Below are positions 13,872-62,288 of a stretch of 64,000 nucleotides of DNA, piece after piece. The translations under genes were made by a program, and so were the position numbers. Below the pieces are notes generated by a model. That model was not told the origin of the DNA. It searched no databases and worked only from the letters and a program-made list of their open reading frames with translations. Numbering within the stretch: the first letter of the stretch is position 1; each line of letters begins with the position of its first letter. The stretch lies in the NCBI RefSeq assembly GCF_963921235.1, contig NC_086097.1:7006001-7070000 (forward strand). Reading direction: 5' to 3'. Origin of the DNA: Mobula hypostoma. Lineage: Eukaryota.

Positions 13872-14199
13872 CTGTGAGTATGTGCCTTGGGCAAGAGGGT
13901 ATCTACTAGCTGTGCCTTGGGAGAGAGGAGATTCACTCGCTGTGAGTATGTGCCTTGGGAAAGAGGAGGTTCACTTGCTGTGAGTATGTGCCTTGGGCAA
14001 GAGGAGATTCACTGGCTGTGAGTATGTGCCTTGGGGAAGAGGAGATTCACTCACTGTGAGTATGTGCCTTGGGAAAGAGGAAATTCACCCGCTGTGAGTA
14101 TGTGCCTTGGGGAAGAGGAGATTCACTCACTGTGAGTATGTGCCTTGGGGAAGAGGAGATTCACTCACTGTGAGTATGTGCCTTGGGGAAGAGGAGATT
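13872..14199. repeat. 38-bp minisatellite, ~9 units
   Basis: Unit ctgtgagtatgtgccttggggaagaggagattcactca starts at 13872, 13910 (shortened), 13940, 13978, 14016, 14054, 14092, 14130 and 14168. Confidence 0.95.
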
Positions 14200-21672: not shown

Positions 21673-21708
21673 AGTCGACGTTTCAGGCCGAGACCCTTCG
21701 TCAGGACT
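21673..21708 (-). ncRNA. Minimal type-I hammerhead ribozyme motif, intact core
   Basis: Minus strand reads agtc-CTGACGA-agggtctcggcct-GAAA-cGTC^gact. Stem I is agtc/gact and stem III is the palindrome ACGT. Confidence 0.75.
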
Positions 21709-22494
21709 AATTGAAGGAAGAGTGAGTAAGGGATTTGAAAGCTGGAGGGGGAGGGGGAGATGCAAAATGATAGGAGAAGACAGGAGGGGGAGGGATAGAG
21801 CCGAGAACTGGACAGGTGATAGGCAAAAGGAGATACGAGAGGATCATGGGACAGGAGGCCTAGGGAGAAAGACGGGGGGGGGGGTGACCCAGAGGATGGG
21901 CAAGAGGTATATTCATAGGGACAGAGGGAGAAAAAGGAGAGTGAGAGAAAGAATGTGTGCATAAAAAGGAGTAACAGCTGGGGTACGAGGGGGAGGTGGG
22001 GCCTAGCGGAAGTTAGAGAAGTCAATGTTCATGCCATCAGGTTGGAGGCTACCCAGACGGAATATAAGGTGTTGTTCCTCCAACCTGAGTGTGGCTTCAT
22101 CTTTACAGTAGAAACTCAGGTTGGAGGAACAACACCTTATATTCCGTCTGGGTAGCCTCCAACCTGATGGCATGAACATTGACTTCTCTAACTTCCGCTA
22201 GGCCCCACCTCCCCCTCGTACCCCAGCTGTTACTCCTTTTTATGCACACATTCTTTCTCTCACTCTCCTTTTTCTCCCTCTGTCCCTCTGAATATACCTC
22301 TTGCCCATCCTCTGGGTCACCCCCCCCCCGTCTTTCTCCCTAGGCCTCCTGTCCCATGATCCTCTCGTATCCCCTTTTGCCTATCACCTGTCCAGCTCTC
22401 GGCTCTATCCCTCCCCCTCCTGTCTTCTCCTATCATTTTGCATCTCCCCCTCCCCCTCCAGCTTTCAAATCCCTTACTCACTCTTCCATCAGTT

Positions 22495-24533: not shown

Positions 24534-25040
24534 GTGTCCCATTCCTGTTCCGACCTGTCGGTCAATGGCCTCCTCCTGTGTCAAGGTGAGGACACCCTCA
24601 GGATGGAGGAGCAACACCTTATATTCCATCTGGGTACCCTCCAACCTGATGGCATGTGTATCGATTTCTCCTTCTGGTTAAATAAAAATTCCCTCCCTTT
24701 CCCCTCTTCTTCAATTCCCCACTCTGGCATCTTGCCTCTTTTCACCTGCTATCACTCCCCTTTAGGTCCCCTCCTCCTACCCTTTCTCTTTAAGTTCCAC
24801 CCTACACTCTTGTCGGATTCCTTCCTCCAGCCCTTTACCTTTCCCACTCATGGCTTCACCTATCACCTTCCAGCTATCCTCCTTCCCTTCCCCCCTTCAT
24901 GTTCTGGCATCCTCCCCCTTCCTTTCCAGTCCTGACGAAGGGTCTCGGCCCAAAAAGTTGGTATTTATTTATTTCCGTAGGTGCTGCCTGACCTGCTGAC
25001 TTCAGCATTTGTGTGTGTGTGTTGCTCTGGATTTCCAGCA
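24534..25040 (+). mobile_element. Older PLE subfamily 3' fragment
   Basis: 'LRMEEQHLIFHLGTLQPDGM' GIY-YIG tail, a degenerate hammerhead at ~24928-24960, and terminus 'ttccagcatctgcagaatttctcatgttt'. Confidence 0.8.
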
Positions 25041-28966: not shown

Positions 28967-29598
28967 AAGCAACACACATCAAAGTTGCTGGTGAACGCAG
29001 CAGGCCAGGCAGCATCTATAGGAAGAGGTACAGTCGACGTTTCGGGCTGAGATCCTTCATCAGGACTAACTGAAGGAAGAGCTAGTAAGAGATTTGAAAG
29101 TGGGAGGGGGAGGGGGAGATCCAAAATGATAGGAGAAGACAGGAGGGGGAGGGATGGAGCCAAGAGCTGGACAGGTGATAGGCAAAAGGGGTATGAGAGG
29201 ATCATGGGACAGGAGGCCCAGGGAGAAGGAAAAGGGGGACTGGGGGAAAAACCCAGAGGCTGGGCAAGGGATATAGTCAGAGGGACAGAGGGAGAAAAAG
29301 GAGCGAGAGAGAGAGAGAGGGAATGTGTGTATATAAATAAATAATGGATGGGGTACGAGGGAGAGGTGGGGCATTAGCGGAAGTTAGAGAAGTCAATGTT
29401 CATGCCATCAGGTGGAGGCTACCCAGACGGAATATAAGGTGTTGTTCCTCCAACCTGAGTGTGGCTTCATCTTTGCAGTAGAGGAGGCCGTGGATAGACA
29501 TACGAGAGATGCTGCCTGGCCTGCTGCGTTCACCAGCAACTTTGATGTGTGGTGCTTGAATTTCCAACATCTGCAGAATTCCTCGTGTTTGCGGTTTC
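28967..29598 (-). mobile_element. PLE 3' end (minus) joined to a short inverted terminus (plus), with 12-bp TSD
   Basis: Minus arm ~28967-29502 and plus arm ~29503-29593. 'aaaatagacaag' occurs at 28958-69 and 29599-610. Confidence 0.85.
29032..29067 (-). ncRNA. Minimal type-I hammerhead ribozyme motif
   Basis: Minus strand reads agtc-CTGATGA-aggatctcagccc-GAAA-cGTC^gact. Stem II is weakened. Confidence 0.65.
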
Positions 29599-30675
29599 AA
29601 AATAGACAAGTCGTATTTTCTAATGTTTACTAATATTTTCAGTATTTGCATGCATTATGAATCACTGAGTAATACGGGCCATTCAGCTTAAATTGTACAT
29701 GCTAATCAAGGTGGCACTGTATCGTTTGCCTGCATTTGACCCACAGCCCTCTAAATCTTTATGATCCATGCACCTGTCCAAATGCCTTTTAAATGTTGTA
29801 AGTGTCCATGTCTCTACCAGTCACTGTGATTGCTTGTTCTAAATACACAGCACCCCACTGCACGCTGTGTGAAACAACAGCCTCTTAAGTTCTCTTAAAT
29901 TGACACTTTCAGACTCAAAAACCCCGGGAGAAAGACTGTGACTATTGATCTTATCTATGCCCACATGATTTTACAGTACTTTGTAAAAGTCTTAGGCACA
30001 TACATATATAGCTAGTGCGCCTACCACTTTTACACAGTACTGTGGTAATTTTATGTATTGCACTGTATTGCTGCCACAAAACAAAACAAATTTCATGACA
30101 TATGTGAGTGATGATAAACCTGATTCTGATATGGGTCTCTGTGGTGGACTGAGAGTGGGAAGGGGCAGGGAGAGAGGAATCATGTTTGGGAAAAGGGGAA
30201 GGGAGCGGGAAGCACCAGAGAGACATTCTGTAATGGTCAATAAACCAATTGTTTTTATAATCAAATGACCTTGCCTGGTGTCTCAGGGCTGGGTGTGTCT
30301 GCAGTCACACTAACCCCTGCCCCTGGCATTCCTTCTCTGCCACCTGTCCCACACCCCTCCACCCTCATTATCTCCAACATCCTTTGCTCCTGCCAGATAT
30401 ATACGAGGGGTGATTGATAAGTTCGTGGCCTAAGGTAGAAAGAGTCAATTTTAGAAAACCTAGCACATTTATTTTTCAGCATAGTCCCCTCCTACATTTA
30501 CACACTTAATCCAGCGGTTGTGAAGCATATGGATCTTGGACCTCCAGAAAGTGTCCGCAGCAGGGGTAATTGATAAATTCATGGCCTACAGTAGAAGGGG
30601 ATGTGTTATACAGCAACACACATAAAAAATGCTGGTGAACACAGCAGGCCAGGTAGCACCTATAGGATGAGGTAC

Positions 30676-30711
30676 AGTCGACGTTTCGGGCCGAGACCCT
30701 TCGTCAGGACT
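30676..30711 (-). ncRNA. Minimal type-I hammerhead ribozyme motif, best-formed copy
   Basis: Minus strand reads agtc-CTGACGA-a-gggt-ctcg-gccc-GAAA-cGTC^gact. Confidence 0.78.
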
Positions 30712-30772
30712 AATTGAAAGAAGAGAGAGTAAGAGATCACTTTCAAATCCCTTACTATCTCTTCTTTCAGTT

Positions 30773-30808
30773 AGTCCTGATGAAGGGTCTCGGCCAGAAA
30801 CATCGACT
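30773..30808 (+). ncRNA. Minimal type-I hammerhead ribozyme motif (AUC triplet)
   Basis: agtc-CTGATGA-agggtctcggcca-GAAA-cATC^gact. Confidence 0.6.
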
Positions 30809-31173
30809 GTACCTCTTCCTATAGATGTTGCCTGGCCTGCTGCGTTCACCAGCATTTTATGTGTGTTGCTTGAAATTCCAGCATCTGCAGATTTCCTCAT
30901 GTTTGAGTTATTAACTGATGAGTTATTAACTTCAAGCTTTCTGCATAATCACTCAAAGAGTTGACCTGCATGTGCATGTAACAAGAGCCGTATAACTCAT
31001 CCCCTTCTACCTTAGGCCACAAACTTCATGGAGGGAAAGTAACAGTCAATGTTTTGGGCTGAAACTCTTCGTTAGGACTGGCGAGGAAGGGGACAGGAGC
31101 CAGAATAAGAAGGTGGGGTAGGGGTGGAGTACCGTGTGGCAGGTGTTAAGTGAGGGGACAGGTGGGTGAGTGG

Positions 31174-35484: not shown

Positions 35485-38400
35485 TAAATATTGATTGACT
35501 GGAGTCCTGTCTGCAAACGTGTCCATAGCTATGTTGCCTAGCACCCTTTGGTATGATGTGCAATCACAGCTTCCTGTACCAACAGTAACATTTGTATTAT
35601 TTGATGCTAAAATCACTTGGCTTGTTCATGAGTCAGCTATTGCTTGCAGGGATATCTTTGTTTAGACACATACTGAAGGAACGAGTCAGCAGCTTAACTC
35701 ATTAACACAATTTAAACAGCAAATTTGCAAAGGAGTGCACAATTACTGCCAAGGACATTCTGGAGCCTCTTGGTTACAAGAGTCTTCCCTTTTTTGAGCA
35801 ACACACACAAAATGCTGGAGGAACTCAGCAGACCAGGCAGCATCTATGGAAAAGAGTACAGTCAACCTTTCGGGCTGAGACCCTTCAGCAGGACTATCCC
35901 TATTTTTGACTTCCTTATCAAGTTTTTTGACTGGATTTGACACCAGATGATGTCCAATGCTGCTTGTATTCCTTTTTTACATCGTTGCATTAATTAGACT
36001 AACTTCCTCCAGTAGCAAGTTTTGTCTTTTGATGTGTGCCAGAGTGATAGCATGCAAAACCAAACCAGCACAATTTTTATCGATCTACCCTAGAAAGCAT
36101 CCCATCTGGATGCATCACAGCTTATGACAACTGTTCTGACCAAGACCACAAGAAACTGCAGGTCACAGAAACCAGCATCCCCACCATGGACTCTGCATAA
36201 GCTTCACACTGCCTTAGTAAAGTAGCCAACATTTTCAAAGCCCCCACCCGTCCAGATATTTAAAGCCCAATCTCCAGCCAGCTTAGTTCTCCAGGTCACT
36301 GAGGCACGCAAGCACCCAAACCATGACGAGATCAGAATCTGGTTTAATATCATTGGCATATCTTGTTAACTTTGTGGCATCTGTACAATAATAATAGAAA
36401 AAGGCTGTGAATTACAGTAAGTATATATATATGTATATATTAAACAATTAAATTAAAAAAGTGCAAGAATAGAAATTAAAAAGTGAGGTAATGTTCACAA
36501 ATTCAATGTCCATTCAGAATTGGATGGCAGAGGGGAAGAAGCTGTTCCTGAATCACTGACTTGTGTGCCTGCAGGCTTCTGTATCTCTTTCCTGATGGTA
36601 GAAATAAGAACAAGGCATGGCCTGGGTGATGGGAGTCCTTAATGATGGATGCCGACTTTCTGAGCTGTCGTTTCTTGAAGATGTTTTGGTTCTCTTGAGA
36701 AGAAACTCATGCTCGGCCAAATTTCTTCCCTATATTGTATGTAGGCTCTGAAAGGATTAGGATTCAGTGCCTTCGTGACATTACAACAAAATGGAGCTGT
36801 TATAATTTTTGCCATTAACAATTCACTTTTTTTCCTCGAGTTTGACATAACTGATAAAAGTCCTGATTAGAATAGCATCAACTAATCGCATACCACAATG
36901 AGCAATTTATTTATTCAGTGCTACCTAAATTGAATCCTCCCCAGTGAATGCAGTCTGATGATTTAATTGTGGTGCTCTGAAGGACTTTTCCCCTTCCCCT
37001 GCCACTCCACCCAAACTCTGCCCCTTAGTTGAATATCTAGTTGATGGTCCCACAACTTATTTAAGTCAAAAGTTGCTGAAAGGTTAAATCCTGCATCATT
37101 TTTTAAAAATAGGAGTTTTTTTAAAATCCAAGAAGCATGTTCAATTAAGTCCTCATCAACACTTAAGAACATAATCTGATTAAGGTGGAGGTTGGTAGGC
37201 TTTTGATTAGTAGGGCATCAAAGGTTACGGGGAGAAGGCAGGTGAATGGGGTTGAGAGGAATAATTAATTAGTCATGTTGGAATGGTAGGGGGCGGCATG
37301 GTAGCGTAATGGTTAGCATAAAGCTTTATAGTACAGGCGACCCGGTTCAGGTCCTGCTACTGCCTGTAAAGAGTTTGTAAGAGTGACCACAGGGGGTTTC
37401 TTCTGGGTGCCCTGGTTTCCTCCCACAGTCCAAAGACGGTTAGTAGGTTAATTGGTCATTATAAATAGTCCCATGATTAGGCTAAAAAGCTTTATAGTAC
37501 AGGCGACCCTGTTCAAGTCCTGCTACTGCCTGTAAAGAATTTGTAAGTTCTCCCTGTGACTGCATGGGTTTCCTCTGGGTGCTCTGGTTTCCTCCCACAG
37601 TCCAAAGATGGTTAGTAGGTTAATTGATCATTATAAATAGTCCCATGATTAGGATAACATGAAATTGGGAATTGCTGGGGGACGTGACTTGAGGGGCTGA
37701 AGAGTCTGTTCCATGCTGTATCTCAATAAAATGGAGGAGCCCGCTTGATGAACCAAATGGCTTAATTCTGCTCCTATGTCTCATGGTCCAATGGCCTTAT
37801 ATTCTCTCTTCAATCCCACCTCCAACCTCATCAGACAAAAGATACGCACACACCACCAGGCTAAAGAACAGCTTCTGTCCTGCTGTTAGAAGACTATTGA
37901 ACATTTCCTTAGTACAATATGATGGACCTCACGGTCTATCTCATTATGATCTTGTGCTGCCCTTTCTCTGTAGCTGTTTCACTTTATTCCGCATTGCTAC
38001 TGTTTTACCTTTTATTCTACTTCAATGCACTGTGTAATGACATGATCTGTCTGAACAGTATGCAAGACAAGTATTCAATGTTTCTCCATACATGTGACAA
38101 GAATAAAATAATAGCGATTTCCAATTCCAGTACCTTATTACGACCTTGCACCTCCCTGTTAACCTGCACCGCACATTCTCGGTGATGTAAATCTTTATTC
38201 TGCACTCTACTACCTCAAGGTACAGTGATAATTAGTTGATCTGAATGCAAGGCAAGGTTTTCACTGTACTGAGCTATATGTAATAGTAATGAGCCAATTT
38301 ACAAATCTAGTGCAACACACACAAAATGCTGGAGGAACTCAGCAGGACAGGCAGCATCCATGGAAAAGAGTAAACAGTTGACGTTTTGAGCTGAAAAACT

Positions 38401-40232
38401 TTATCAGGACTGGGGAAATTTAAAGTTCTTCAGGGTAGGCATCCCTGGAAGAGAGTTCACAGTGTAGTAGTAGAATCATAAACATGAGAAAGCCTGCAGA
38501 AGCTGGAAATCTAGGGGAACACACACAAAATGCTGGAGGAACTCAGCATGCCAGGCAGAATCTATGGAAATGAATGAACAGTCAATGAATCGGGCCGAGA
38601 CCCTTCATTAGGTCAGCACAGATCAAAGTTCTTGTCGAAGGAACCCAAAACGTGGACTGTTTATTGATTTCCATAGATGCTGCCTGGCATACTGAGTTCC
38701 TCCAGCATTTTGTGTGTGTTTTTATTCTTATGTGTTGAAATGTACTGCTGCCACATAACAATAAATTTCATGACATGTGCCGGTGATATTAAACCTAATT
38801 CTGCTTCTGAAAGTGAAGATCAATTAAGGACATGGATGGATCTACTGACATTAGGTGAAGAGAGCTAGAAAGCTTGAGTAGAATGTGTATGGTGACGTTA
38901 TTCAGTTAGGCAAAAAGGTCTTGGCCATTCTGTTTAATTGTATGAATACCCGGAGGCTGTTCTGTTGACGCTTTGTTCCTTCCTGCTGAGAATGATCACA
39001 TCAAGACTTTCACTATTCAGACTTAAACCTGCAGAAATACACAGTGGGGCAGACAGGGGTTGGGTGTGTGGTCACTGGCAGTTATGGTTCTGTACCCTGA
39101 TGGTTAAAGGGAATCACTAACACATGGTGCAGTATCTCAAGTGAAATGATTTCAGGTGAGTTCATGATATGGATTTCTGATTTTAGACCTTTAGTCATTG
39201 GAGAATGGGGAATTAGCATTAGCCAACTCTGTGATCAAAACTCCCTTGAAATCAGTGGTTCCAAACCTGAGGTCAACAGACCTCGTGCTTAATGGTATCG
39301 GTCCATTAAAGTTTAAAATCATTTTCCCCTGTGGGTCATAAAATCACTTGACCGGCACGCAATTCCACAGAGTGCCAAAGTAGAACTTTGGGGCAGCATG
39401 ATAGTGCAGTGGTTAGCACAATGCTTTACAGTAAGGAGTTTGTCCACTCTCCCCCCATGACGAAGGGTCACGGCCCGAAACATCGACTGTACCTCTTCCT
39501 AGAGATGCTGCCTGGCCTGCTGTGTTCACCAGCAACTTTGATGTGTGTTGCTTGAATTTCCAGCATCTGTGGATTTCCTCGTGTTTTGAGTTTCCTCTGG
39601 GTGCCCCGGTTTCCTCCGCAGTCCGAACACAGAGGTTAATTGGTCATTGTAAGTTGTTCTGTGATTAGGCTCAGATGAAAGTGTGATTACTGGGTGGTGT
39701 GCCTCAAAAGGCTGAAAGGGCCTATTCTGTGTGAAATAAATAGTCATGACGTTGGGTCTCATTGCAAGGCAGGAAGTTGAACTCCAGTGTTGCTCCCATG
39801 ATGTATGCCTCATTTACTCCATTCCTCTATTACTCAAATACACTCTGAGAGGCGGGAAGCTCATTGAGCTGCAGTGCACCTACGCTCGTGGTATATCCGA
39901 AGAGTTGGGCTTGGGCAGTCTATCCTGAGGTCTCACCCCTGGAGTGCAGCTTTTGAGCAGTAAATTCAACTCCAAGATAATCTTCATCCATGAGATCGCC
40001 GGGATCTTTTAACACAAAGTAAGCAACAAGATTGGAAGTGATCAGGGATGCTGAATAGTAATCTTTTCTGTAAACTGCACCGAAAAGAAAATTAAGGCAG
40101 AAATTTGTGATCAATCATTAGTCCCAAATTTACTATTTTACACTATTCCAGAAAGATCATACTCATTTTATGATATTTCTCCAGGGGACTGTAATTGATA
40201 AAATCAGTGTGGAATTAGAAAGGGTCAAATTA

Positions 40233-40518
40233 GGGCCGGCTGGTGGCGCAATGACATCAGCGCCGGACTCTGAAACGGAGGTTCCCGGGTTCGAACCCAG
40301 TCGGGTCCGCTCCCGAGCATGCTTTCCATCCGTGCTGGGATGAGTGTTGAGGTCGCAACTTGACCTCGTAAAATACAGGGAAAAATACTGCGAAATGTCC
40401 GTGTGAGGAGTGGCGCACCACACAGTCTCTCTCTCTCGCGGAGGCGCCTTGTAAGGGCATGAAAAAGACATCGTCCCGCCAACATCGCACACGCACGCAA
40501 GCACACACACACACAAAA
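40233..40518 (+). mobile_element. Young tRNA-derived SINE with 16-bp TSD
   Basis: A-box-like 'tggcgcaatga', B box 'ggttcgaaccc', CpG-rich body, (CA)n-A tail. TSD agaaagggt(c/g)aaatta at 40217-32 and 40519-34. Confidence 0.88.
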
Positions 40519-43500
40519 AGAAAGGGTGAAATTAAACAGTGGAAGAGGGGGTTTTGAAGACAACAGCTAGCTGTTGAATTCTCGAGGAAAAGGCAACATT
40601 CTCTGCAGAAAGTGGATTATTTTTATGGCAGAACATGAAAGACTCTGAGGCCTTACACCCACCTAACGCTCAAAAATCTCAAAACTATCCCCAGTGACCA
40701 CAACTGGCCTTGACTTCAGGATTGTGGAAAGTAATAAAGTGGTATTAAGCTTAAAATGTTCAACTATGACTTACTTTTCAGGATGTGGAATTTCTTTGAT
40801 CTCAGTGGCAAAGTAATAGCTTTTCTATCCAGAGGTTGATAATATTATGAATTCTACCCTTGGCCAAGTATTTCTGGAGTGCTCTCTCTTGCAAGCTCAC
40901 AACTAATACCTTTTATCCCAACTCTTACTACCCTTCTTGGATAAACATGGGGGGGTTTGCTAGGGGAACGGAGGGTCGGTGCAATATTTCTTGGATAAGC
41001 ATGGGGGGTTTGCTCGGGGAAGGGTGGCCAGTGAAATATTTCTGCTTATTATAAGGCTGAGTGGAGGTGAACTGAGATTCTCTTCATAGTTTAGTTTCAG
41101 GGGCAGCAATACAAGTTAAGCAAAACCTTGTGAGCATTTAGAAGCTATATATTTTGTTTTGAGCTATTTCCCTCCATTGGAGAATAAATTCTGACATCCA
41201 GAGCTTCAAGGTCATTTCTCACTTTTCAATAAATCTTCAACAGACCAATACCCTTCTGGAAGCAGAATGCAGGACATCAAGGCCATGCTGTCTTCTCACT
41301 GCTGCCATCAGGAATGAGGTACAGGACCCTCAGGTCCCACACCACCAGGTTCAGAAAGAGTTATTTCCTCCTAGTATCAGGCTCCTGAGCCAGAGGGGAT
41401 AACTTCACTCATCCCAACAACAAAATGTTCCCACAACCTATAGACTCACTTTCATGGACTCTTCTTTTCATGCTCTCGATATTTATTGCTTATTTATTCA
41501 TTATAATTTTGCCTGTTTTTTTGTTATTTTTGTTTCCTTGCATTTACTGTGAATGCCCACAAAAAAATGAATCACAGGGTGTAGATGGTGACAAATACGT
41601 ACTTTGATAATAAATTTACTTTGAATGTTGAATGCCTGCAATATTATAATTACAGTCTGACTGATGACCAGATCATGAAAATAAAGGTTGCTTCACCTGT
41701 AATGATGTTAGTAAAGATTAGCTTTCTTTGTCAGATGTACATCCAATCATCAAAACATACAGTGAAATGCGTCAATGACCAATGCAGTCTGAGCATTGTG
41801 CTGGCGCAGCCTACAAATGTAGCCACACTTCTGGTGCCAACATAGCATGGCTAAACTCACTAACTCTAGCCCCTACATCTTTGGCAAGTGGAGGAGACCA
41901 GGGTACCCAGAGAAAACCCACGTGGTCATGGGGAGAATGTACGAACTCCTTAAAGGCAGCAGCGGGAATCGAACACTGATTAGTGATTGCTGGTGCTGTA
42001 AAGCAACCGTGCCGCCCTTTTGATTACTGAACTTTTCACTTTTGACATTTTGTTTTAATGTGACATCTGCCTAGCCCACAACCTGGCTGCAGCATCTACA
42101 GTACTCCCTACCTGAGCTCGTTGTGCCCAAATACTGCATGTTAGTTCAGTCCAGAAAGTTAGATCATATGACATCCAGAGCAAACTAGCCTAACGGATGC
42201 AAAATCAACTTGATGGTAGAGGACAAAGGGCCGTGGCGGAGGATTGTTTTCAGACCAGAGGCCAGAAGGGCAAATAGTGTTCAACTCATTACTCTGTGAG
42301 AATTTACTTGCACCCTGTGCTCAACTGACTCTTTGCCTGTGGCCTGCAGTCATCAACACTCTCCTCAGCACTAAACTGACTCCGTGACTGTGGACTCACT
42401 TTCGGGGGCACTATGGCTCTCATGTCCTATACCTTATTTCTTCACTTTTTTACTGTTTACGTAATTTGTTCTTTTTTTGAAAATAGGATGTCTGGTGGTC
42501 TTAGTTGAGTGTTTTTTTTCATGGATCCTATTGTGTTTCTTTGTTTCGTGGCTGCATGCAAGAAAATGAATCTCAAGGTTGTATAATTTATAAATACTTT
42601 GATAATAAATGTACTTTGAACTTTGTGACCAGCAGTGTGTCACAGATATCGCTGCTGTTTGTCATTTATATTAACGATTTGGATGAGAACATAGGTGGCA
42701 TAATTAGCAAAAATATGGATGTCACTAAACTTGGTGGGAGAGTGGACAGTGAAGAAAGTTTTCTAAAACTACAATGTGATATTAATCAGCTGAACCAGTC
42801 ACCAAGGAATGGAAGATGAAGCTAAATTCAAATAAATGTGAGGTGTTGTATTTTTGGCAAGGCAGAACTTGTAGAGTCAGTGGTAGGGCCCTGGGAAGTG
42901 TACATGTATAGCACCAAATAAAACAATGTTCTTCCTGACCAAGGTGCAAAATACAGTACACACTATAACTCACACACACAACACAAAGTAATATTATCAG
43001 AAATAAATTAACAAATAATTGACGATATTCCAGAAGATTGACATTCAGCATAAGGTGCATTTACGACACATTTCCTGTCAGCCACCTTATATAGTCCTGT
43101 GCCTAGCGTCACTTTATGGACACACAGTCAATCAATGTACGGAAGCTATTTTATGTATTTATATTTTTTATATTCTTTATTGTACTGTTTTTTTGTGCTG
43201 CATCAGATCTGGAGTAACAATTATTTCATTTTCCTTTACAATTGTGTACTAGAAATCATATTAAACAACCCTGACTTGACTTGATTAAACAATCTTGACT
43301 GAACGAGTTACAAGTAAGCACTATAGCATTACTGGGAACACACACAAAATGCTGAAGGAACTTAGCAGGTCAGGCAGCATCGAAGGAAATTAATACACAG
43401 TTGATGTTTCAGGCTTAGACCCTACATCTGGATTGGAAAGAAAGGGGGAAGAAAATAGTGTGGGGAGGGGGAAGGGGCTAGCTGGAAGGTGATTGATGAA

Positions 43501-44752
43501 GTCAAGTGGGTTGCTTTGTAAGTGATGAGACCCAGGAAAACAGGGGGTTGTACATGTTTGATATTGACACATTATGACCTTATATGTTTTGCTAAATGTA
43601 CCATAAAACGGATCAAGTTTTAGGTTGGTCTGCAGATCAAAAATTCTTCTGTTTATTCATAATTCAGTTCAGAGCATTAGCACCTTGCTGCAGTTCAATG
43701 GTATGCATACTTTGTCCACAGTAGACAATGTCTTTTTGTCTCAATGCCTTGAGACAGACTGAGTAGAAAAGAAGATTAAGCCGTCCGCCCATGGTTTTGA
43801 GAATGTTAAAATTCGGAGATTTGACAAGTATTTGGAACAAGATTTGAAACATTTAAAAAATATTGGAATGCAGCAAGTTTAAGGACACTGGAGCAGGATT
43901 AAAATTTGCTGACTTAACTTTCTCATCTTAATTAAACTACAAACGATGACATGTATGCTAAAGAAAACAAGAAACCATTGTTGACTGTCCATCCAAAGAT
44001 AGGGAAGTGAAATACATCTGCCAATTTTCCCCACAAATTAATAGTTTACACACAACACAATCAGTATGGCAGAGTGTCTCATTGATAATTCATTGAGGCA
44101 TTACCAGCAAAACTCAACTCCAGCATGAGATCTCACAGCTGCTGATAAACTAAAATTCGAGATATTTCTTAAAACTTGGTCAAATAGGAAAGAGAAGAGA
44201 TCTGAAGTCACAGAAAGCTTTGCGGACGGAGATTAAGATACGGGTAGCTGCAGACTTCATCATGAATTTTGAAACAAATACATTTGGAGATAGTCAAATG
44301 GATCTACAAATGCAGGAATAGTCTATGCTGCACTTCCAGTTATCAGTGACACCGTATTCCACACAAAACTTCATCCAATCTTATGAACACATTCTTCCTT
44401 TCAATTCCAATATAATTTCCAGTTTCCAATATCCAAGATCCATCGCTCCATTGAGGAACAAAGCTTCTCACAACCCAGCCATCCGCATGGAAAAACAGAA
44501 TTTACTTTCAAATTCCATATTGCCTCAGTATTTGAATTCCCCATGAGGTAATACCAGAGGTGTGGGGAAGTCTGGGACTTTCTGTTCATGACCACATTAC
44601 AAGGTGTATTTTAACTGCAGGGATAGTTTGTCACTATAGAATAGACCTCTATAACAAGTATAAACACGAGATTTTGCAGATGCTGGAAATCCAGAGCAAC
44701 ACACACAAAATGCTGGGGGAGCTTAGCAGGACCAGCAGAGTCCATGGAAATG

Positions 44753-45051
44753 AATAAATAGTTGACATTTCATGCTGAGACCCTTCTTTAGGACCAAGAA
44801 ACAGTTAATGTTTCAGGTTGACCCCCTTCATCAGCACCAATAAAAGTCAAAGTTTCAGTCTGACCCTCTTCATCAGGACCAATAAACAGTCAATGTTTCA
44901 GGCTGACATCCTTCATCAAGACCAATAAACAGTTGAAGTTTCATGCCAAGACCCTTCATCAGGACCAATAAACAGTCCACATTTCAGGCTGAGACCTTTC
45001 ATCGGGACCAATAAACAGTTGATGTTTCGGGCTGAGACCCTTTTTCAGGAC
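44753..45051 (-). repeat. Tandem array of seven 42-43-bp units, each one hammerhead-ribozyme motif
   Basis: Units start at 44753, 44796, 44839, 44881, 44924, 44967 and 45010. Minus-strand consensus is ggtc-CTGATGA-agggtctcagcct-GAAA-c(a/g)t(c/t)(g/a)actgtttatt. Confidence 0.85.
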
Positions 45052-45421
45052 ATAGAACATAGAACATAGAATAGTACAGCACATTACAGGCCCTTTGGCC
45101 GACAATATTGTGCCAACCCTCAAACCCTGCCTCCCATATAAGCCCCCACCTTAAATTCCTCCATATACCTGTCTAGTAGTCTGTTAAATTTCACTAGTGT
45201 ATCTGCCTCCACCACTGACTCAGGCAGTGCATTCCACGCACCAACCACTCTCTGAGTAAAAAACCTTCCTCTAATATCCCCCTTGAACTTCCCACCCCTT
45301 ACCTTAAAGCCATGTCCTCTTGTATTGAGCAGTGGTGCCCTGGGGAAGAGGTGCCGGCTGTCCACTCTATCTATTCCTCTTATTATCTTGTACACCTCTA
45401 TCATGTCTCCTCTCATCCTCC
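45052..45421 (-). mobile_element. Young CR1 3' end inserted at the edge of the hammerhead array
   Basis: Open frame 'RRMRGDMIEVYKIIRGIDRVD...RFFTQRVVGAWNALPESVVEADT' and an (ATAGAAC)n tail at 45052-45070. Confidence 0.9.
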
Positions 45422-45628
45422 TGAGGACCACAAGAGAAGGTCCCGATGAAGAGTCACGGCATGAAATGTTGACTGCTTATTGATCCTGATGAAGGGTCTC
45501 AGCCCAAAATGCTGACTGTTTATTATTTCTGAAGAAGGGTGCCATTTCCATGGATGCTGCTTGAGCTGCTGAGTTCCTTCTATAGAAATATAGTTAGTTT
45601 GTATGGTGGCCTACTGAACTTGCAGGTA

Positions 45629-47305
45629 CAATCAGACCACGTATAACGCTACCCTGCATAGCGCTGATTCGTTACAACGTGGTTATTCAATTCTCTATTG
45701 AAATTTTTAATAATGACAAAAAAATCATTCTAAACGATACTTAAAATTTCTCAAGAGCATTCACCATTACAACAAACATTCAATCAGCCAGTGAGAGCGC
45801 TTTATGTATGATCTGAGCCTTCCATAGCCAATCATGGATTACTTCATGCTCTGCCTCCGCCACATGGGTAAACGTCCGTGCTTCCTCTCCAACTTATTCC
45901 ACTCTTTCACACAAAATGTCTGGAAAATGGCCTGCAACTTCCAGTGAGGGTAGCAGATCTCAGAGATCTAGGGAAAGCATTGGCATGGATGTGAAACTGC
46001 ATTCTCATGGTGAGAGCCTTAGTAGCGAAGAGCTTCGAGAATTGGCGGAGCAGTGCATCCTGAGTGAATCTGAGGGCATGGATGGAGAAGAGGAAACACC
46101 AGTGAGAAACCTCAGCGTAAAAGTCCCACCATCACCACGATCACACAAATCATGGACCAGTTCATCGATAATGACCCTGGGAATGAAGCAATAAGGCAAA
46201 GAGGGATATTCTCAATGTGAGTCCCTGCTACCGAGAACTGCTTTATGAAAGGAAACTTAAGAGAAGGCAGTCAATTCTCGATGCCTACTTGAAGAGGAAG
46301 CCAAAGTAATAGGGAGGGGAGGAGAAGATGGCGGCGCAACGCAGCGCGCACGGTCACTCTGAAATGATATTGTATTTGTTAAGTAGGGGCTGTGCACAAT
46401 CCTGATTTGATGGAGATAGACGTGAGAAGCACGCAGGAACATCTGGAGAAACTTCTGAAATGTCTGCTTTGCTGCGGCTGCTACTGTGCAATTGAGAATC
46501 TCCGGAGGGGAAGGCCCCAGATCCTCGGCTTTGCCTATTACCTGTTGTCGGGGCTGGGGTCGACGCGCTCGGCAGAGATGATGCTCGGTGCTCGGTGTCG
46601 GAGGGCTGGTCGGAGGCTTGAATTTTTCGGACGGACTCAAGAGTCGGCTGTGGTCGGGTGCTTCCAGGGTGCTGCATCGGCAAGTTTGCGGCGCTGGAGA
46701 CTCATGGCAGGAGGAGAGCTTCTCTTCCTTCTACCGTCTGCGTGAGATGATGGGACTTTTGAGAGACTTTGAGACTTTTTTTTACCATGCCCATGGTCTG
46801 TTGTTTATCAAATTACGGTATTGCTTTGCATTGTTGTAACTATATGTTATAATTATGTGGTTTTTTCGGTTTTTTCAGTCTTGGTTTGTCTTGTGTTTCC
46901 GTGATATCATTCTGGAGGAATATTGTATCATTTCTTAATGCATGCATTACTAAATGACAATAAAAGAGGACTGTGTGTCCTCATAATCTAATCTTAAAAA
47001 AAAGTTAGAGGAGGCCTCACAGCCTGGTCCCTTCTCTAAGATGTGACCTCTACCCGCTTCGCTCCACTGCTGCTGTGATGTGTTGCTGCTCCACTGATGC
47101 ACAGGTTGGGCCTACTTGCGTGTTTGCTGCTCCATGAATTACTGTGTATACATAAAGTATCACATCATATACCTCAGGCTTGATTTTTTTTAAATCATGC
47201 ACACATGTCCGTTTATGTAATGTTATAATGACCCTGCATAGCGCAGACCTACATGGCACTCCATCTCCGTGGAACACATCCTCAGCGTTAAGTGGGACTT
47301 GAGTG
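45629..47305 (+). mobile_element. Tigger/pogo-like deleted DNA transposon with a nested retroelement
   Basis: TA-flanked diverged TIRs (caatcagaccacgtataacgct / agcgttaagtgggacttgagtg). 'LHSHGESLSSEELRELAEQ...EEETPVRNLSVK' resembles the acidic C-terminus of Tigger transposases. Confidence 0.6.
46322..46994 (+). mobile_element. Non-autonomous, non-coding retroelement (LINE-like 5' end, AATAAA, (AATCT)n tail)
   Basis: Begins 'ggagAAGATGGCGGCg'. The 5' two-thirds are CpG-rich and the 3' part is T-rich. It ends 'acaataaaagaggactgtgtgtcctcataatctaatct'. Confidence 0.6.
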
Positions 47306-60080: not shown

Positions 60081-62288
60081 CAGCCTGTTTGAGACATTAC
60101 CATTTGAAGGTGTCCTCAACGCTGGGGAGGCTAGTGCTTATGATGGAGCTGCCTCAGCTAGCAACTGTCTGCAACTTTTGTCTGATCCTGTGCATGGCTC
60201 CTCCATACCAGGCAGTGATGTAACTAGTTAGAATGCTCTCTATGGTACATACGCAGAAATTTGCTAGAGTCTTCGGTAACATACCAATTCGCCGGAAGCT
60301 CCTAATGAAATAGAGCTGGTGTGGTGCCTTCTTTGTAATTGCATCTATATGTTGGGCCCTGGATAGATCCACAGAGATGTTGACACGTAGGAACTTGAAA
60401 CTGCTCACCCTTTCCTTTGATGAGGACTGGTGTGCGTTCCCTCGACTTTCCCTTCCTGAAGTTTACAATCAGTTCCTTAGTCTTACTGACATTGAGTGCA
60501 AGGTTGTTATCGCAATACAGTTCAATAACTAAACCACCAACCACCACTTAACCACCAACTAAAAACAAGAAATACCTGGGGCTTTGAGTAGAATTTTGAC
60601 TTTATGGGATATAAGGATATGACCAAGGGATGAAAGGGAACATGATACAATTATCGGTATCCAGACCAAGCGAGTGACATTAGTCTAATAACAGCCTTTA
60701 CTACAAAGGGAATGCAGTATAAAAGCAGCAGGAAAAAAAATATATAATTTTGCACTGCTGAGGCTACTGCTGTTGTTCTACAGTACTTACAACGTTAGTT
60801 TCCATATTTGGGGAAAGATATATCAATTTTGTCTTCCAGTTAACAAACTTCCTTCCCCTTCCACTCTGACATTTTACTTTTTCTCACCCGCCTATCCCCT
60901 CCCCCTGGGAACCCTCCTCCTTTCCTTTCTCCCCTGGTCACTCTCCTCTCCTGTCAGGTTCCTTCTTCTCCAGCCCTTGACTTCTCCCACACATCTGACT
61001 TCACCTATCATCTTCCTCCCCCACCTTTTCATTCTGGCATCTTCCCTCTTCCTTCTCAGTCCTGAAGAAGGGTTTCAGCATGAAATATCGACTGTTTATT
61101 TATTTCCATAGATGCTGCCTGACCTCCTGAATTCCTCCAGCATTTTGTGCATCTTACTTTGGATTTCCAGCATCAGCAGAGTTTCTTTCGTTTAGGTTGT
61201 TCTTATATTTGAAACAATCAGAGAGGAATTATTAGACTGATTACTGGGCCGAAGGAATGCCCATCAGTCTGGGCTTGTATTCACTGGGGGATTGAAGAAT
61301 GAGAGATGATCTTATTGAGATTCCAAGGCCGAGATGTTTTCACTGATGAGGATATCTGGAATATTGGGTGTCGATTCTGATAAAGGGTTTGTCCATTTTG
61401 TCTAGATTTTAAGAGGAATTTCTTCTATCGAACTGTTGGAAATCTTCAAATCTCTTCATACCAGAAAGTGCTAGAGTTGGCTATTGAATATATTCCAGGT
61501 GGAGATTGATTGGTTCGCTTAAATTATAGGAACAAGACAGACAAAATGCTGGAGGAACACAGCAGGGCAGGCAGCTTCTATGGAGTAGAGGAACAGTTGA
61601 TGTTTCATGCCAGGACCCTTCATCAATTACAAATGTGGATAACATGGAAAGATGATGTTGACAGCAAAGTTGGTTCAGGCAAGATCTTGTTGAAAGGCTA
61701 GGAACATCTTGAAGGACCCTAACGACCCTGCTCATGGACTGTTTGTCCCATTCCCATCAGGGAGGAGGCTATGTATCATCCACATCAGGACCACCAAACC
61801 CCAAAAAAATTTGCTTTCCCCAAGCAGTAAGGCTGATCAACATCTGTAACCACTAACCCACCCCTCCACTCCCAGAGCCATCATGACTTTATCATTTCCA
61901 GTCAGAGTTACCTTACGTACAGACACTCCTGTGCCTAATGCCTATTTATGGCCATGCAATCGATCTATGTATATAAGCTATCTACGTATTTATATTTATT
62001 GTGGTTTTATTATTCTTTATCTTTGTGTGTTTTTTGTGCTGCATTGGATCCAGAGTAACAACTATTTTGTTCTCCTTGACACTTGTGTCCTGGAAATGAC
62101 ATCTTGAACCTTGACATCCTCACTTGACTCATTCCGAGCTTTGCTTACAGTGGTTTTGCTTTTCTACCTGGCTGATACTCTTCATGTCCAAGCCTGCCCT
62201 CCCACCCCCTTTCGTTTGTTCTTCTCTTTCTGTACCTTTCGAAATATTCCCACAAATTTTCGCTTTGAGCATTGTTTCAGTCACGTAC

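What the first reader, a model, noticed from the sequence alone, without database searches (positions are those of the whole stretch)
44753..45051. Minisatellite whose repeat unit is exactly one hammerhead ribozyme (7 x 43 bp)
Seen: seven 42-43-bp tandem units lie inside an old PLE terminus. On the minus strand each unit spans one minimal type-I hammerhead (stem I, CTGATGA, stem II, GAAA, NTH, stem I') plus a ~7-nt linker. GAAA is kept in all seven units. CTGATGA is exact in units 2, 3 and 5, and altered in the others (TTGATGA, CCGATGA, CTAAAGA, CTGAAAA). Known: PLEs carry minimal hammerheads with a palindromic stem III that are thought to cleave as dimers. Hammerhead-containing tandem repeats (newt satellite 2, non-LTR retrozymes) have much longer monomers. 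Inference: tandem spacing would supply dimer partners in cis and could release ~43-nt monomers, making this a near-minimal retrozyme-like unit amplified by repeated RT template jumps or rolling-circle copying. Plain DNA slippage is the alternative. The units are well diverged, so the array is probably a fossil.
Basis: partly seen in the sequence, partly recalled or inferred. Interest (0 to 1): 0.75.

Follow-up and report, generated by a model that had tools for sequence, protein, structure and literature searches.

The report
Fossil hammerhead minisatellite in retroposon tail
Seven 43-letter repeats, each a worn-out copy of the small self-cutting RNA motif carried by Penelope-type jumping genes, are really there, but they look like a copying stutter inside a dead element, not a new mini-replicon.

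Summary
Window 44753-45050 (minus strand) holds seven 42-43-bp tandem units (TRF: period 43, 6.6 copies, 79% match). Each unit is one Penelope-type minimal hammerhead (min-HHR) plus a 5-nt linker.

The motif belongs to a very large repeat family in a 3.5-Gb cartilaginous-fish-like genome (18,929 exact pattern hits, control 0).

All seven units are dead. Only 3 of 7 keep CTGATGA, and 0 of 7 keep the ACGU palindrome needed for dimeric helix III. The damage is mostly CpG decay.

New here:
- A second, inverted 2.4-unit array with the same junction lies at 45440-45541.
- The two arms are split by a young LINE fragment (96.4% identical to a full copy), so the array's upstream neighbour is a LINE, not a PLE.

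Elsewhere in the genome, hammerhead-containing tandem duplications have periods of 32-62 bp and differing junctions, and some reach 12 or more units. Tail-only duplications are also common. Every array I read ends in the normal element tail.

This favours ribozyme-independent template switching or slippage over release of 43-nt monomers and rolling-circle copying.

Tandem min-HHRs in PLEs and PLE-derived hammerhead minisatellites (51-972 bp) are already described. The scan has also noted shark min-HHR families in other genomes. This is a low-novelty fossil.

The parts
44662..44752 (-). 3' tail of the minus-strand arm. This is the roughly 91-nt module that follows the hammerhead in family copies and ends ...CAGCATCTGCAAAATCTCGTGTTT.
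   Evidence: Read. About 78% identical, as a mean over local alignments, to the tails of 20 other family copies.
44753..45050 (-). Array of seven 42-43-bp units (U7 to U1), each a decayed minimal hammerhead plus a 5-nt linker.
   Evidence: TRF. Unit spacing. Pairwise identity 66-84%, mean 77%.
45008..45050 (-). U1. Core is CTGAAAA (G8 lost). Helix III box reads ACAT. It is the only unit that keeps C11.1 (GCCCGAAA).
44965..45007 (-). U2. Core is CCGATGA (U4 lost). Reads GAAATGTG, so position 17 is G.
44922..44964 (-). U3. Core CTGATGA is exact. Helix II is weakened (GGCAT). Helix III box reads ACTT.
44879..44921 (-). U4. Core is TTGATGA (C3 lost). It shares a C-to-G transversion in helix II with U5 and U6.
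44837..44878 (-). U5 (42 nt). Core is exact. Helix II is broken (GAGGGTCAGAC). Helix III box reads ACTT.
44794..44836 (-). U6. Core is exact. Helix III box reads ACAT. It shares two transversions with U5.
44753..44793 (-). U7. Core is CTAAAGA (G5 lost). It runs straight into the tail.
45052..45422 (-). Young, 5'-truncated fragment of an APE-type LINE: the ORF2 C-terminus plus 3' UTR, ending in (TTCTATG)3 at 45052-45071. It is inserted between the two hammerhead arms.
   Evidence: 344/357 = 96.4% identical to full copy L097. The L097 ORF of 964 aa carries Exo_endo_phos and RVT_1. The protein search gave 616,289 first-look candidates, and the scored ones were 86-97% identical.
45423..45439 (.). 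17-nt spacer between the LINE 5' end and the plus-strand arm. It is probably the original centre of the head-to-head pair.
45440..45541 (+). Second, inverted array: unit A 45440-45481 (CCGATGA), unit B 45482-45524 (CTGATGA), partial unit C 45525-45541 (CTGAAGA). The junctions TTATT|GATCC and TTTATT|ATTTC are of the same kind as in the minus-strand arm.
   Evidence: Found (hits at window 45471 and 45514). Read.
45542..45580 (+). Partial tail of the plus-strand arm (CCATTTCCATGGATGCTGC...).
   Evidence: 28 of 35 aligned positions match the minus-strand tail.

Best explanation
The array is a dead by-product of copying errors inside a short Penelope-type retroposon. It is not a ribozyme-defined replicon.

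The parent element carries one minimal hammerhead about 90-110 nt from its 3' end: helix I 5 bp, CUGANGA, one unpaired A, helix II, GAAAC, GUC, and no loop 3.

Proposed steps:
1. A 43-bp segment spanning that hammerhead, from 4-5 nt before the core to 10-11 nt after the cleavage site, was duplicated head to tail. The cause was polymerase template switching or slippage at a short T-rich microhomology. All four CpGs of the unit were still intact at that time.
2. At least three units were present when the head-to-head pair of arms formed, because both arms carry the same junction.
3. The minus-strand arm then grew stepwise in place to seven units.
4. Every unit decayed, mainly at CpGs.
5. Much later, a young LINE fragment landed between the two arms.

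Shown: the anatomy, the decay pattern, the inverted partner, the LINE insertion, and the variety of periods and junctions elsewhere in the genome.

Inferred: that the first duplication happened during reverse transcription or in a source copy rather than in place, and that later growth happened at the DNA level.

Present function: none.
For: 1. Genome survey.
- Pairs of hammerhead cores 29-59 bp apart: 283+324 hits, control 4+5.
- With GAAA also required: 207+180 hits, control 9+15.
- In the first 100 rows I read 21 rows at 17 loci, outside the window, as a second core in hammerhead context. Their periods are 32, 35, 40, 44, 48, 49, 50, 51, 53, 54, 56, 58 and 62. None is 43. Periods of 32-36 are shorter than a whole hammerhead (38 nt).

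2. Arrays fetched.
- L081 is 56 bp x at least 12, L082 is 54 bp x 3, L083 is 50 bp x 5, and L094 is 43 bp x 2 in another subfamily with a different phase.
- Each has a different junction, and each ends in the normal tail.
- The L083 junction lies in a shared TTTCCA, and the array has a 100-bp higher-order pattern.

3. Tail-only tandem duplications of the same element are at least as common. On contig C1 I count 10 such loci, against 6 hammerhead-core loci.

4. Age and order of events.
- Across units, each of the four CpG sites shows both TG and CA derivatives. The founding unit was therefore undecayed.
- Mean unit-to-unit identity is 76.5%. Random family pairs are 75.2% identical, the target tail against other tails about 78%, and tail against tail between the two arms 28/35.
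- U4, U5 and U6 share nested transversions, which indicates later stepwise growth.

5. No sign of selection on the ribozyme.
- Core changes are 4/70 against 16/140 at non-CpG positions, p=0.22.
- 0 of 7 units keep ACGU.
- The array RNA folds no better than shuffles, z=-0.34.

6. The LINE fragment is 96.4% identical to a full copy, so it is much younger than the array.

7. Literature.
- PLE reverse transcription starts internally about 85-90 nt downstream of the hammerhead cut, uses uncleaved RNA, and extends both DNA strands (Frangieh 2024, PMC11167929, main text read).
- Li et al. 2026 (preprint; methods, results and discussion read) propose that PLE termini give rise to tandem repeats that expand by unequal crossover.
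Against: - The same TTTAT(T)|(A/G/C)AGTCC-type junction recurs in both arms of this locus and at L002, L023, L028 and L029, with a 10-nt remnant in L031. One search adds two unread candidates. This could mean that a source RNA carrying 43-nt tandem units was itself mobile, which a purely accidental local stutter does not require.
- The junction closes helix I with a 5-nt loop. Two adjacent undecayed units could therefore fold, without a pseudoknot, into the double hammerhead known to be the active form (my base-pairing argument, not a computation).
- The 56-bp array L081 keeps all 12 cores: 0/110 changes against 21/330 in the linker, p=0.003. I cannot fully explain this, although the array was found by searching for intact cores, its helix II is broken, and position 11.1 is T in every unit.
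- I cannot tell reverse-transcriptase switching from DNA-polymerase slippage.
- Most periods come from matched strings only. I fetched and read only four of the surveyed arrays (L081, L082, L083, L094).
Confidence: 0.7

Rival explanations
1. Near-minimal retrozyme. Tandem hammerheads cut the transcript into 43-nt monomers. These were circularised and copied by rolling-circle reverse transcription or repeated template jumps, and the multimeric cDNA was integrated.
For: - The unit is one hammerhead plus 5 nt.
- Helix I would be closed by the junction, and adjacent ACGU boxes could pair in cis (my reading of intact family copies such as L090:129-171).
- Metazoan type I hammerheads work as dimers, and retrozymes make circular RNAs (PMC4209133, main text parts 1-2 of 4; PMC7229834, passages).
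- Hammerhead tandem repeats with consensus lengths as short as 51 bp are reported.
Against: - The array sits in the ordinary element context and runs straight into the normal tail. So do L081, L082, L083 and L094.
- Periods and junctions differ from locus to locus, and some units are shorter than a hammerhead.
- Hammerhead-free tail duplications are equally common.
- The core is not better conserved than other positions.
- A 43-nt circle has no room for the internal RT start site, which lies about 85-90 nt downstream of the cut in the one PLE studied.
- Min-HHRs cleave poorly even as dimers or trimers in vitro.
- Efficient cleavage would destroy the template that has to be copied across the cleavage sites.
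Confidence: 0.06
2. Selected cis-dimer variant. A small lineage of the retroposon carried two or more tandem hammerheads in its RNA because a built-in dimer partner improved processing. The window holds an old, later-expanded copy of that lineage.
For: - Both arms of the head-to-head pair carry the same junction.
- Four other loci share it, and some begin with a partial unit, as 5'-truncated copies of a multi-unit template would (L028, L029, L031).
- The founding unit had intact CpGs.
- Axolotl PLEs are said to carry minimal hammerhead copies in tandem (PMC7229834, passage read; the supplementary figure could not be read).
Against: - Only a handful of loci share the junction, against 18,929 exact family hits, so there is no sign of success.
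- The tails of those loci differ, which fits recurrent origin as well as descent.
- In vitro, hammerhead cleavage was not needed for PLE insertion.
- Other periods are at least as frequent.
Confidence: 0.12
3. Purely local DNA event. A single-hammerhead copy inserted, and all units arose afterwards by replication slippage or unequal exchange. The inverted arm is a later DNA-level inverted duplication of part of the array.
For: - Nested shared transversions in U4-U6.
- The higher-order pattern in L083.
- L081 units share the decayed ACAT box, so that array expanded after decay had begun.
Against: - Units differ from each other as much as random family copies do, and as much as the two arms do. 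Most units therefore date from about the time of insertion.
- Head-to-head pairs are a general feature of this family. Most of the listed hits are such junctions, and one search shows more. This points to formation at insertion.
Confidence: 0.2

Closest known systems
Minimal type I hammerheads (min-HHR) of metazoan Penelope-like elements (Cervera & de la Pena 2014, PMC4209133; parts 1-2 of 4 of the main text read)
   Same: Conserved CUGANGA and GAAA boxes; one unpaired nucleotide between A9 and 10.1; a G10.1-C11.1 pair; a short helix I (5 bp); no loop 3, with a palindromic ACGU box that implies action as a dimer; massive copy number; mostly solo or inverted-pair copies.
   Different: Here the motif is multiplied head to tail with a 43-bp period, and every unit in the window is mutated beyond plausible activity. 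No RT/GIY-YIG ORF was found next to any copy I examined.
Non-LTR retrozymes: hammerhead-bearing tandem repeats of animals (Cervera & de la Pena 2020, PMC7229834, passages read; Li, Clavereau & Pollet 2026 preprint, 10.64898/2026.07.22.740005, methods, results and discussion read)
   Same: A tandem repeat with one type I hammerhead per unit. It derives from a PLE terminus. Seven units is typical: 75% of families have a maximum of seven units.
   Different: The monomer is 43 bp, against about 150-450 bp (2020 paper) or 51-972 bp (2026 preprint). The hammerhead is minimal and lacks loop-loop contacts. The array is embedded in its parent element instead of standing alone. There are no two consecutive complete motifs today, and no RNA evidence.
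Double-hammerhead (dimeric) cleavage of newt satellite 2 and ASBVd RNAs (Forster et al. 1988, as described in PMC6155905 and PMC6765202; passages read)
   Same: A weak or absent helix III is compensated by pairing between two hammerheads on one multimeric RNA.
   Different: In those RNAs the partners are about 330 nt (newt) or a genome length apart. Here they would be 43 nt apart and joined by a 5-nt loop. Activity was not tested, and the palindrome is lost in all seven units.
PLE insertion architecture with internal RT initiation (Frangieh et al. 2024, PMC11167929; main text read)
   Same: The hammerhead lies a fixed distance of about 90-110 nt from the 3' end of insertions. Copies are 5'-truncated with target-site duplications. 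Both target strands are extended, which could yield head-to-head pairs.
   Different: That work describes an autonomous Poseidon element of Anolis. It reports no internal tandem multiplication of the hammerhead.

Membership tests
min-HHR of metazoan PLEs | Catalytic boxes C3-U4-G5-A6-N7-G8-A9 and G12-A13-A14 | tested here: met
   Family: in 93 copies the core columns are invariant or at least 90% kept, except N7, which is T, A, C or G. Array: GAAA in 7/7 units, exact CUGAUGA in 3/7. The other four units each carry a change at C3, U4, G5 or G8.
min-HHR of metazoan PLEs | Unpaired nucleotide between A9 and 10.1, and a G10.1-C11.1 pair | tested here: met
   The extra A is invariant in 93/93 copies (A15). 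The 10.1-11.1 pair is GC in 43, GU in 43, AU in 3 and unpaired in 4 of 93, as expected from CpG decay of CCCG. In the array only U1 keeps C11.1.
min-HHR of metazoan PLEs | No loop 3; palindromic 15.2-16.2 (ACGU) allowing a dimeric helix III | tested here: met
   The family majority reads GAAACGTCGAC (tool consensus), and intact examples exist, such as L090:129-171 and window 29028-29070. In the array 0/7 units keep ACGT (ACAT x3, ATGT x2, ACTT x2).
min-HHR of metazoan PLEs | Helices I (4-5 bp) and II supported by complementarity and covariation | tested here: inconclusive
   82.8% of 836 cells are paired, against 17.9-46.0% in registers slid by 1-3 columns. Covariation is no better than in shuffles (242/500 reach the observed score).
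min-HHR of metazoan PLEs | Self-cleavage | not testable with these tools
   No experiment was possible. No RNA run was listed.
Rfam hammerhead families | Match to a curated covariance model | tested here: not met
   0 matches at gathering score over the whole window. At E<=10 on 44300-45500 there are 5 matches, none to a hammerhead family. From my own knowledge: these models expect a helix III hairpin, which min-HHRs lack.
Penelope-like element terminus (pLTR) | Adjacent ORF with telomerase-like RT and GIY-YIG endonuclease | tested here: not met
   0 of 41 window ORFs (>=110 aa) carry RT or GIY-YIG. 0 of 81 ORFs (>=130 aa) from the family loci carry GIY-YIG, and 5 carry RVT_1. PF01541 in the whole genome gave 0 matches at E<=1e-5, but only 150 of 27,350 candidates were scored, and Pfam's model may not see the PLE domain. 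Absence is therefore not shown. The copies look non-autonomous.
Penelope-like element terminus (pLTR) | Hammerhead at a fixed distance of about 90-120 nt from the insertion's 3' end; 5' truncation; target-site duplications; tandem or inverted partners | tested here: met
   The tail is 91 nt here and of similar length in other copies. Target-site duplications, read by eye, flank L085, L087, L090 and L093. Head-to-head pairs are seen in many loci. Compared with Frangieh 2024.
Non-LTR retrozyme | Tandem repeat with at least two consecutive units carrying complete hammerhead motifs (Li et al. 2026 criterion) | tested here: not met
   U5 and U6 have exact cores, but helix II is broken or weak and there is no ACGU box. 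No adjacent pair of units is complete.
Non-LTR retrozyme | Free-standing array of monomers (150-450 nt, or 51-972 bp) expressed as linear and circular RNA | tested here: not met
   The monomer is 43 bp and the array is embedded in the parent element with its normal tail. RNA could not be tested.

The most novel reading that the evidence does not exclude
A small lineage of Penelope-derived retroposons in this fish was transcribed and copied with three or more 43-nt hammerhead units in tandem. This would be the most compact natural cis double hammerhead, with helix I closed by a 5-nt loop and helix III formed between neighbouring ACGU boxes. The window holds one old, inverted-pair insertion of it. 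If active, such an RNA would be close to the smallest conceivable unit of a self-cleaving concatemer.
Probability: 0.1. Interest if true: 0.55.

Novelty: new member of a known kind. Interest (0 to 1): 0.25.

Why it matters
If the tandem units had been an active, self-defined 43-nt replicon, they would set a lower size limit for retrozyme-like elements and give a natural cis-dimer hammerhead to study.

The evidence instead shows an ordinary fossil. It illustrates how the hammerhead region of Penelope-type retroposons is prone to three things: internal tandem duplication, inverted pairing, and 5' truncation at the motif. This agrees with the recent proposal that hammerhead minisatellites (non-LTR retrozymes) are born from PLE termini.

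It also carries a caution for annotation pipelines that call 'retrozymes' from TRF plus hammerhead motifs. Arrays of this kind can arise, and persist, without any ribozyme activity.

Tried and rejected
- Rfam at gathering score and at E<=10 gave no hammerhead family. This is uninformative, because min-HHRs lack helix III.
- Search for a PLE ORF:
  - Pfam on 41 window ORFs found no GIY-YIG.
  - Pfam on 81 ORFs from the fetched loci found no GIY-YIG.
  - PF01541 over the genome found none either.
  - The PLE link therefore rests on hammerhead type and insertion architecture only.
- One search was mis-specified: the pattern had one N too many. It gave 62+78 hits against control 99+109 and is discarded. 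One search repeats it correctly and gives 6 hits against control 3. Three are in the window, one is L028, and two were not read.
It was shortened.
- RNA evidence: no RNA holder was listed for window 36000-45900. Only small-share contig runs were offered, so I did not lay reads.
- Folding the array RNA and the L081 array RNA gave z=-0.34 and +1.43, so there is no excess structure.
- Covariation of helices I and II in 93 family copies showed no excess over shuffles.
- I considered that individual units came from different template RNAs, because single units match other loci at up to 98%. I rejected this as evidence. With tens of thousands of copies decaying at the same CpG sites, near-identical matches are expected by chance.
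- I considered that the LINE and the array were made in one event. I rejected this because the LINE fragment is 96.4% identical to a full copy, while units and arms are about 77-80% identical to each other.
- Papers I could not see:
  - Lunse, Weinberg & Breaker (RNA Biol; PMC5785218) is not held.
  - Supplementary Figure S7C of PMC7229834, on tandem min-HHRs in axolotl PLEs, cannot be read.
  - Supplements of the 2026 preprint are closed.
  - Any of these may describe short-period min-HHR tandems.
- Literature searches for a described hammerhead minisatellite of this size found none shorter than 51 bp.
Full report
**Observation.**
- Tandem Repeats Finder reports an array at 44768-45051: period 43, 6.6 copies, 79% matches, no indels, score 323.
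- On the minus strand, the GAAA[C/T] boxes are spaced 43, 43, 43, 43, 42 and 43 nt apart. This gives seven units, U1 (45050-45008) to U7 (44793-44753).
- GAAA is kept in 7 of 7 units. CTGATGA is exact in U3, U5 and U6.
- The pattern CTGATGA-N8-20-GAAA occurs 6 times in the window against 1.24 expected, and none of 100 shuffles reached 6.

**What one unit is.**
- A well-kept family copy, such as L090:129-171 or window 29028-29070, reads as follows:
  - (T/C)AGTC, the helix I 5' strand
  - CTGATGA
  - one unpaired A
  - GGGTCTCGGCCC, which is helix II (4 bp closing a tetraloop)
  - GAAAC
  - GTC
  - GACTG, the helix I 3' strand
- There is no loop 3. A15.1-C15.2-G16.2-U16.1 form the palindrome ACGU.
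- These are the features that Cervera and de la Pena (2014; PMC4209133) list for the minimal hammerheads of metazoan Penelope-like elements:
  - an extra nucleotide after A9
  - G10.1-C11.1
  - a short helix I
  - palindromic 15.2-16.2
  - activity expected only as a dimer
- In the array the 43-bp unit is this 38-nt motif plus a 5-nt linker (TTTAT). The 3' strand of helix I of one unit is therefore joined to the 5' strand of the next.
- On paper, two neighbouring undecayed units could fold without a pseudoknot into a double hammerhead. This is my base-pairing argument, not a computation.
- Rfam finds no hammerhead here, even at E<=10. That is uninformative for a motif without helix III.

**State of the units.**
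- None is plausibly active.
- Four units carry a change at an essential core position: U1 at G8, U2 at U4, U4 at C3, U7 at G5.
- The three units with exact cores have weak or broken helix II.
- 0 of 7 keep ACGU. The box reads ACAT three times, ATGT twice and ACTT twice.
- The array RNA folds no better than shuffled sequence, z=-0.34.

**The family.**
- The window lies in a 3.48-Gb, 200-contig genome.
- The pattern CTGATGAAGGGTCTCNGCCNRAAA has 18,929 exact hits, control 0.
- In 93 copies not taken from the array:
  - The core columns are invariant or at least 90% kept, except N7, which is T, A, C or G in different subfamilies.
  - The two helices pair in 82.8% of cells, against 18-46% in slid registers. 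Covariation does not exceed shuffles.
- Copies consist of the hammerhead followed by a tail of about 90-110 nt. Some also have a CT-rich stretch of about 300-400 nt upstream.
- Many are 5'-truncated at or near the hammerhead and flanked by 9-14-bp target-site duplications. I read these by eye in L085, L087, L090 and L093.
- Many are head-to-head pairs.
- This matches the PLE insertion signature described by Frangieh et al. (2024; PMC11167929):
  - Reverse transcription starts internally, 111-118 nt into the ORF.
  - The hammerhead cut lies 26 nt after the start codon.
  - Both target strands are cleaved and extended.
  - Uncleaved RNA is the main template.
- I found no RT/GIY-YIG ORF beside any copy. 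The PLE assignment therefore rests on ribozyme type and architecture, and the copies look non-autonomous.
- Earlier notes of this scan on other shark genomes reached the same family assignment.

**The locus.**
- First, picked up a second array on the plus strand (read).
  - Unit A is 45440-45481, unit B is 45482-45524, and a partial unit C is 45525-45541.
  - A partial tail follows, to 45580.
  - Its junctions (TTATT|GATCC, TTTATT|ATTTC) are of the same kind as in the minus-strand arm (TTTATT|GGTCC).
  - The locus is therefore a head-to-head pair, and each arm carries a multiplied hammerhead.
- Second, the sequence between the arms (45052-45422, minus strand) is not PLE.
  - It is the 3' end of an APE-type LINE.
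  - The 118-aa ORF has 616,289 first-look candidates in the genome, and the scored ones are 86-97% identical.
  - A full copy (L097) encodes a 964-aa protein with Exo_endo_phos and RVT_1.
  - The window fragment is 344/357 = 96.4% identical to L097 and ends in (TTCTATG)3.
  - It is far younger than the array and simply split the old pair.

**Age and order of events.**
- Mean identity between units is 76.5-77%, range 66-84%.
- Random pairs of family copies are 75.2% identical (sd 8.2).
- The target tail is about 78% identical to 20 other tails.
- The tails of the two arms match at 28 of 35 positions.
- Units, arms and the family at large are thus about equally diverged.
- At each of the four CpG sites of the motif, the units show both TG and CA derivatives. 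The founding unit was therefore undecayed when it was multiplied.
- U4, U5 and U6 share a C-to-G transversion, and U5 and U6 share a further T-to-G. Part of the minus-strand arm therefore grew later, stepwise, in place.

**Is the 43-bp unit special?**
- Core pairs 29-59 bp apart give 283+324 hits, control 4+5. Many of these belong to unrelated satellites.
- With GAAA also required, there are 207+180 hits, control 9+15.
- Among the first 100 rows:
  - Four are the window's own.
  - 30 others begin with a family hammerhead.
  - In 21 of those 30, at 17 loci, I read the second match as a hammerhead core in context.
  - Their periods are 32, 35, 40, 44, 48, 49, 50, 51, 53, 54, 56, 58 and 62. None is 43, and some are shorter than a whole hammerhead.
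- Fetched examples:
  - L081: 56 bp x at least 12
  - L082: 54 bp x 3; its unit includes 23 nt of upstream flank and ends 3 nt after the cleavage site
  - L083: 50 bp x 5; its junction lies in a shared TTTCCA, and it has a 100-bp higher-order pattern
  - L094: 43 bp x 2 in a different subfamily with a different phase
- All of these run into the normal tail.
- Other junctions fall in shared GATG or CCTG.
- Tandem duplications of the tail without the core are at least as frequent. On contig C1 there are 10 such loci, against 6 with repeated cores.
- The same 43-bp junction does recur at L002, L023, L028 and L029, with a remnant in L031. A strict pattern finds 6 hits, control 3: three in the window, one at L028, and two I did not read.
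- The array is therefore not unique, but the phase of such duplications is not fixed either.

**Selection on the ribozyme.**
- In the target, essential core cells differ from the column majority in 4/70 cases. The figures are 16/140 at non-CpG positions (p=0.22) and 18/56 at CpG-derived positions.
- In L081 the core is untouched: 0/110 against 21/330 in the linker, p=0.003.
- However, that array was found by searching for intact cores. Its helix II is mostly mismatched, position 11.1 is T in every unit, and all units share a decayed ACAT box.
- I leave the L081 result as unexplained.

**Most likely mechanism.**
- The hammerhead region of this retroposon is a hot spot for polymerase switching. 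This would explain three things at once:
  - 5' truncation at the motif
  - snap-back head-to-head pairs whose junction lies in or beside the motif
  - tandem duplications of variable phase
- The 43-bp unit arose once or a few times by a switch between T-rich microhomologies, just outside helix I on either side.
- Because both arms carry it, at least three units existed when the pair formed. That was either in the template RNA or on the first cDNA.
- Later DNA-level slippage or unequal exchange added units to one arm.
- CpG decay killed all units, and a LINE then landed in the centre.
- I put this ribozyme-independent account at about 0.7.
- Alternatives:
  - A selected cis-dimer lineage, 0.12. 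This and the mobile-template part of my account are not mutually exclusive.
  - The 43-nt retrozyme or rolling-circle model, about 0.06.
  - A purely local DNA history, about 0.2. This overlaps with my best account in its later steps.

**Comparison with what is known.**
- Minimal hammerheads in PLE termini were described in 2014 (PMC4209133).
- Cervera and de la Pena (2020; PMC7229834, passage) state that axolotl PLEs carry minimal hammerhead copies in tandem. I could not read the supplementary figure.
- Li et al. (2026 preprint) detect hammerhead tandem repeats with TRF plus minimal and canonical descriptors in vertebrates, including one chondrichthyan.
  - They report consensus lengths of 51-972 bp.
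  - Most families have at most seven units.
  - They propose birth from PLE termini followed by unequal crossover.
- The present array is a shorter (43 bp), embedded and fully decayed example of that phenomenon.
- My searches found no shorter unit in print. I could not see Lunse et al., the 2020 supplement or the preprint's supplements.

**Verdict.** The retrozyme-like mechanism is not supported. This is a new member of a known kind, of low interest.

Noticed in passing
window 45440-45580 (+): An inverted partner of the array, not reported by TRF: 2.4 hammerhead units with the same junction type plus a partial tail. It makes the locus a head-to-head pair.
   Followed up: yes
window 45052-45422 (-): A young, 5'-truncated APE-type LINE fragment, 96.4% identical to a full copy, ending in (TTCTATG)3. 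Its family has more than 600,000 first-look candidates in the genome. It splits the two hammerhead arms.
   Followed up: yes
L081 = G000:C5:192648350-192649150: A 56-bp x at least 12 hammerhead array in which all 12 CTGATGA and GAAA boxes are intact (0/110 core cells changed, against 21/330 in the linker). Helix II is mostly mismatched and all units share a decayed ACAT box. The core conservation is unexplained, and ascertainment may contribute.
   Followed up: partly
alignment A2 (93 family copies; window 21669-21711, 24925-24967, 29028-29070, 30672-30714, 30770-30812, 31040-31082, 38372-38414, 61055-61097, 61591-61633 among them): Nine further copies of the hammerhead family lie in the window, including a head-to-head pair at 30672-30812. 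Across subfamilies the only freely varying core position is N7 (CTGATGA, CTGAAGA, CTGACGA, CTGAGGA).
   Followed up: partly
G000:C1:61736956-61736995 and other rows: Tail-only tandem duplications of the same element. Some units start exactly at, or within a few bases of, the predicted hammerhead cleavage site (...GCCTGG|GACTGTACC). This is what a jump from the 5' end of a cleaved template would give.
   Followed up: no
G000:C2:164069428-164110862 and G000:C4:507-16369 (rows): A 42-bp satellite with thousands of hits. Its unit matches a stretch of the LINE ORF2 3' region seen in L097 (row 2 of alignment A1), so the satellite was apparently born from LINE coding sequence.
   Followed up: no
rows such as G000:C12:72156534, C18:53809580: Many family copies are head-to-head pairs whose junction lies inside the hammerhead core (GACCCTTCAT|TAGTCCTGATGAAGG), as if the cDNA had snapped back on itself at the motif.
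   Followed up: partly
window 13911-14199: A 38-bp x 7.6 minisatellite, 93% matches, TRF score 487 (higher than the studied array). Unrelated sequence.
   Followed up: no
window 37320-37657: A 172-bp x 2 direct repeat whose unit contains a tRNA-like box (GGTTCAAGTCC). Possibly a duplicated SINE.
   Followed up: no
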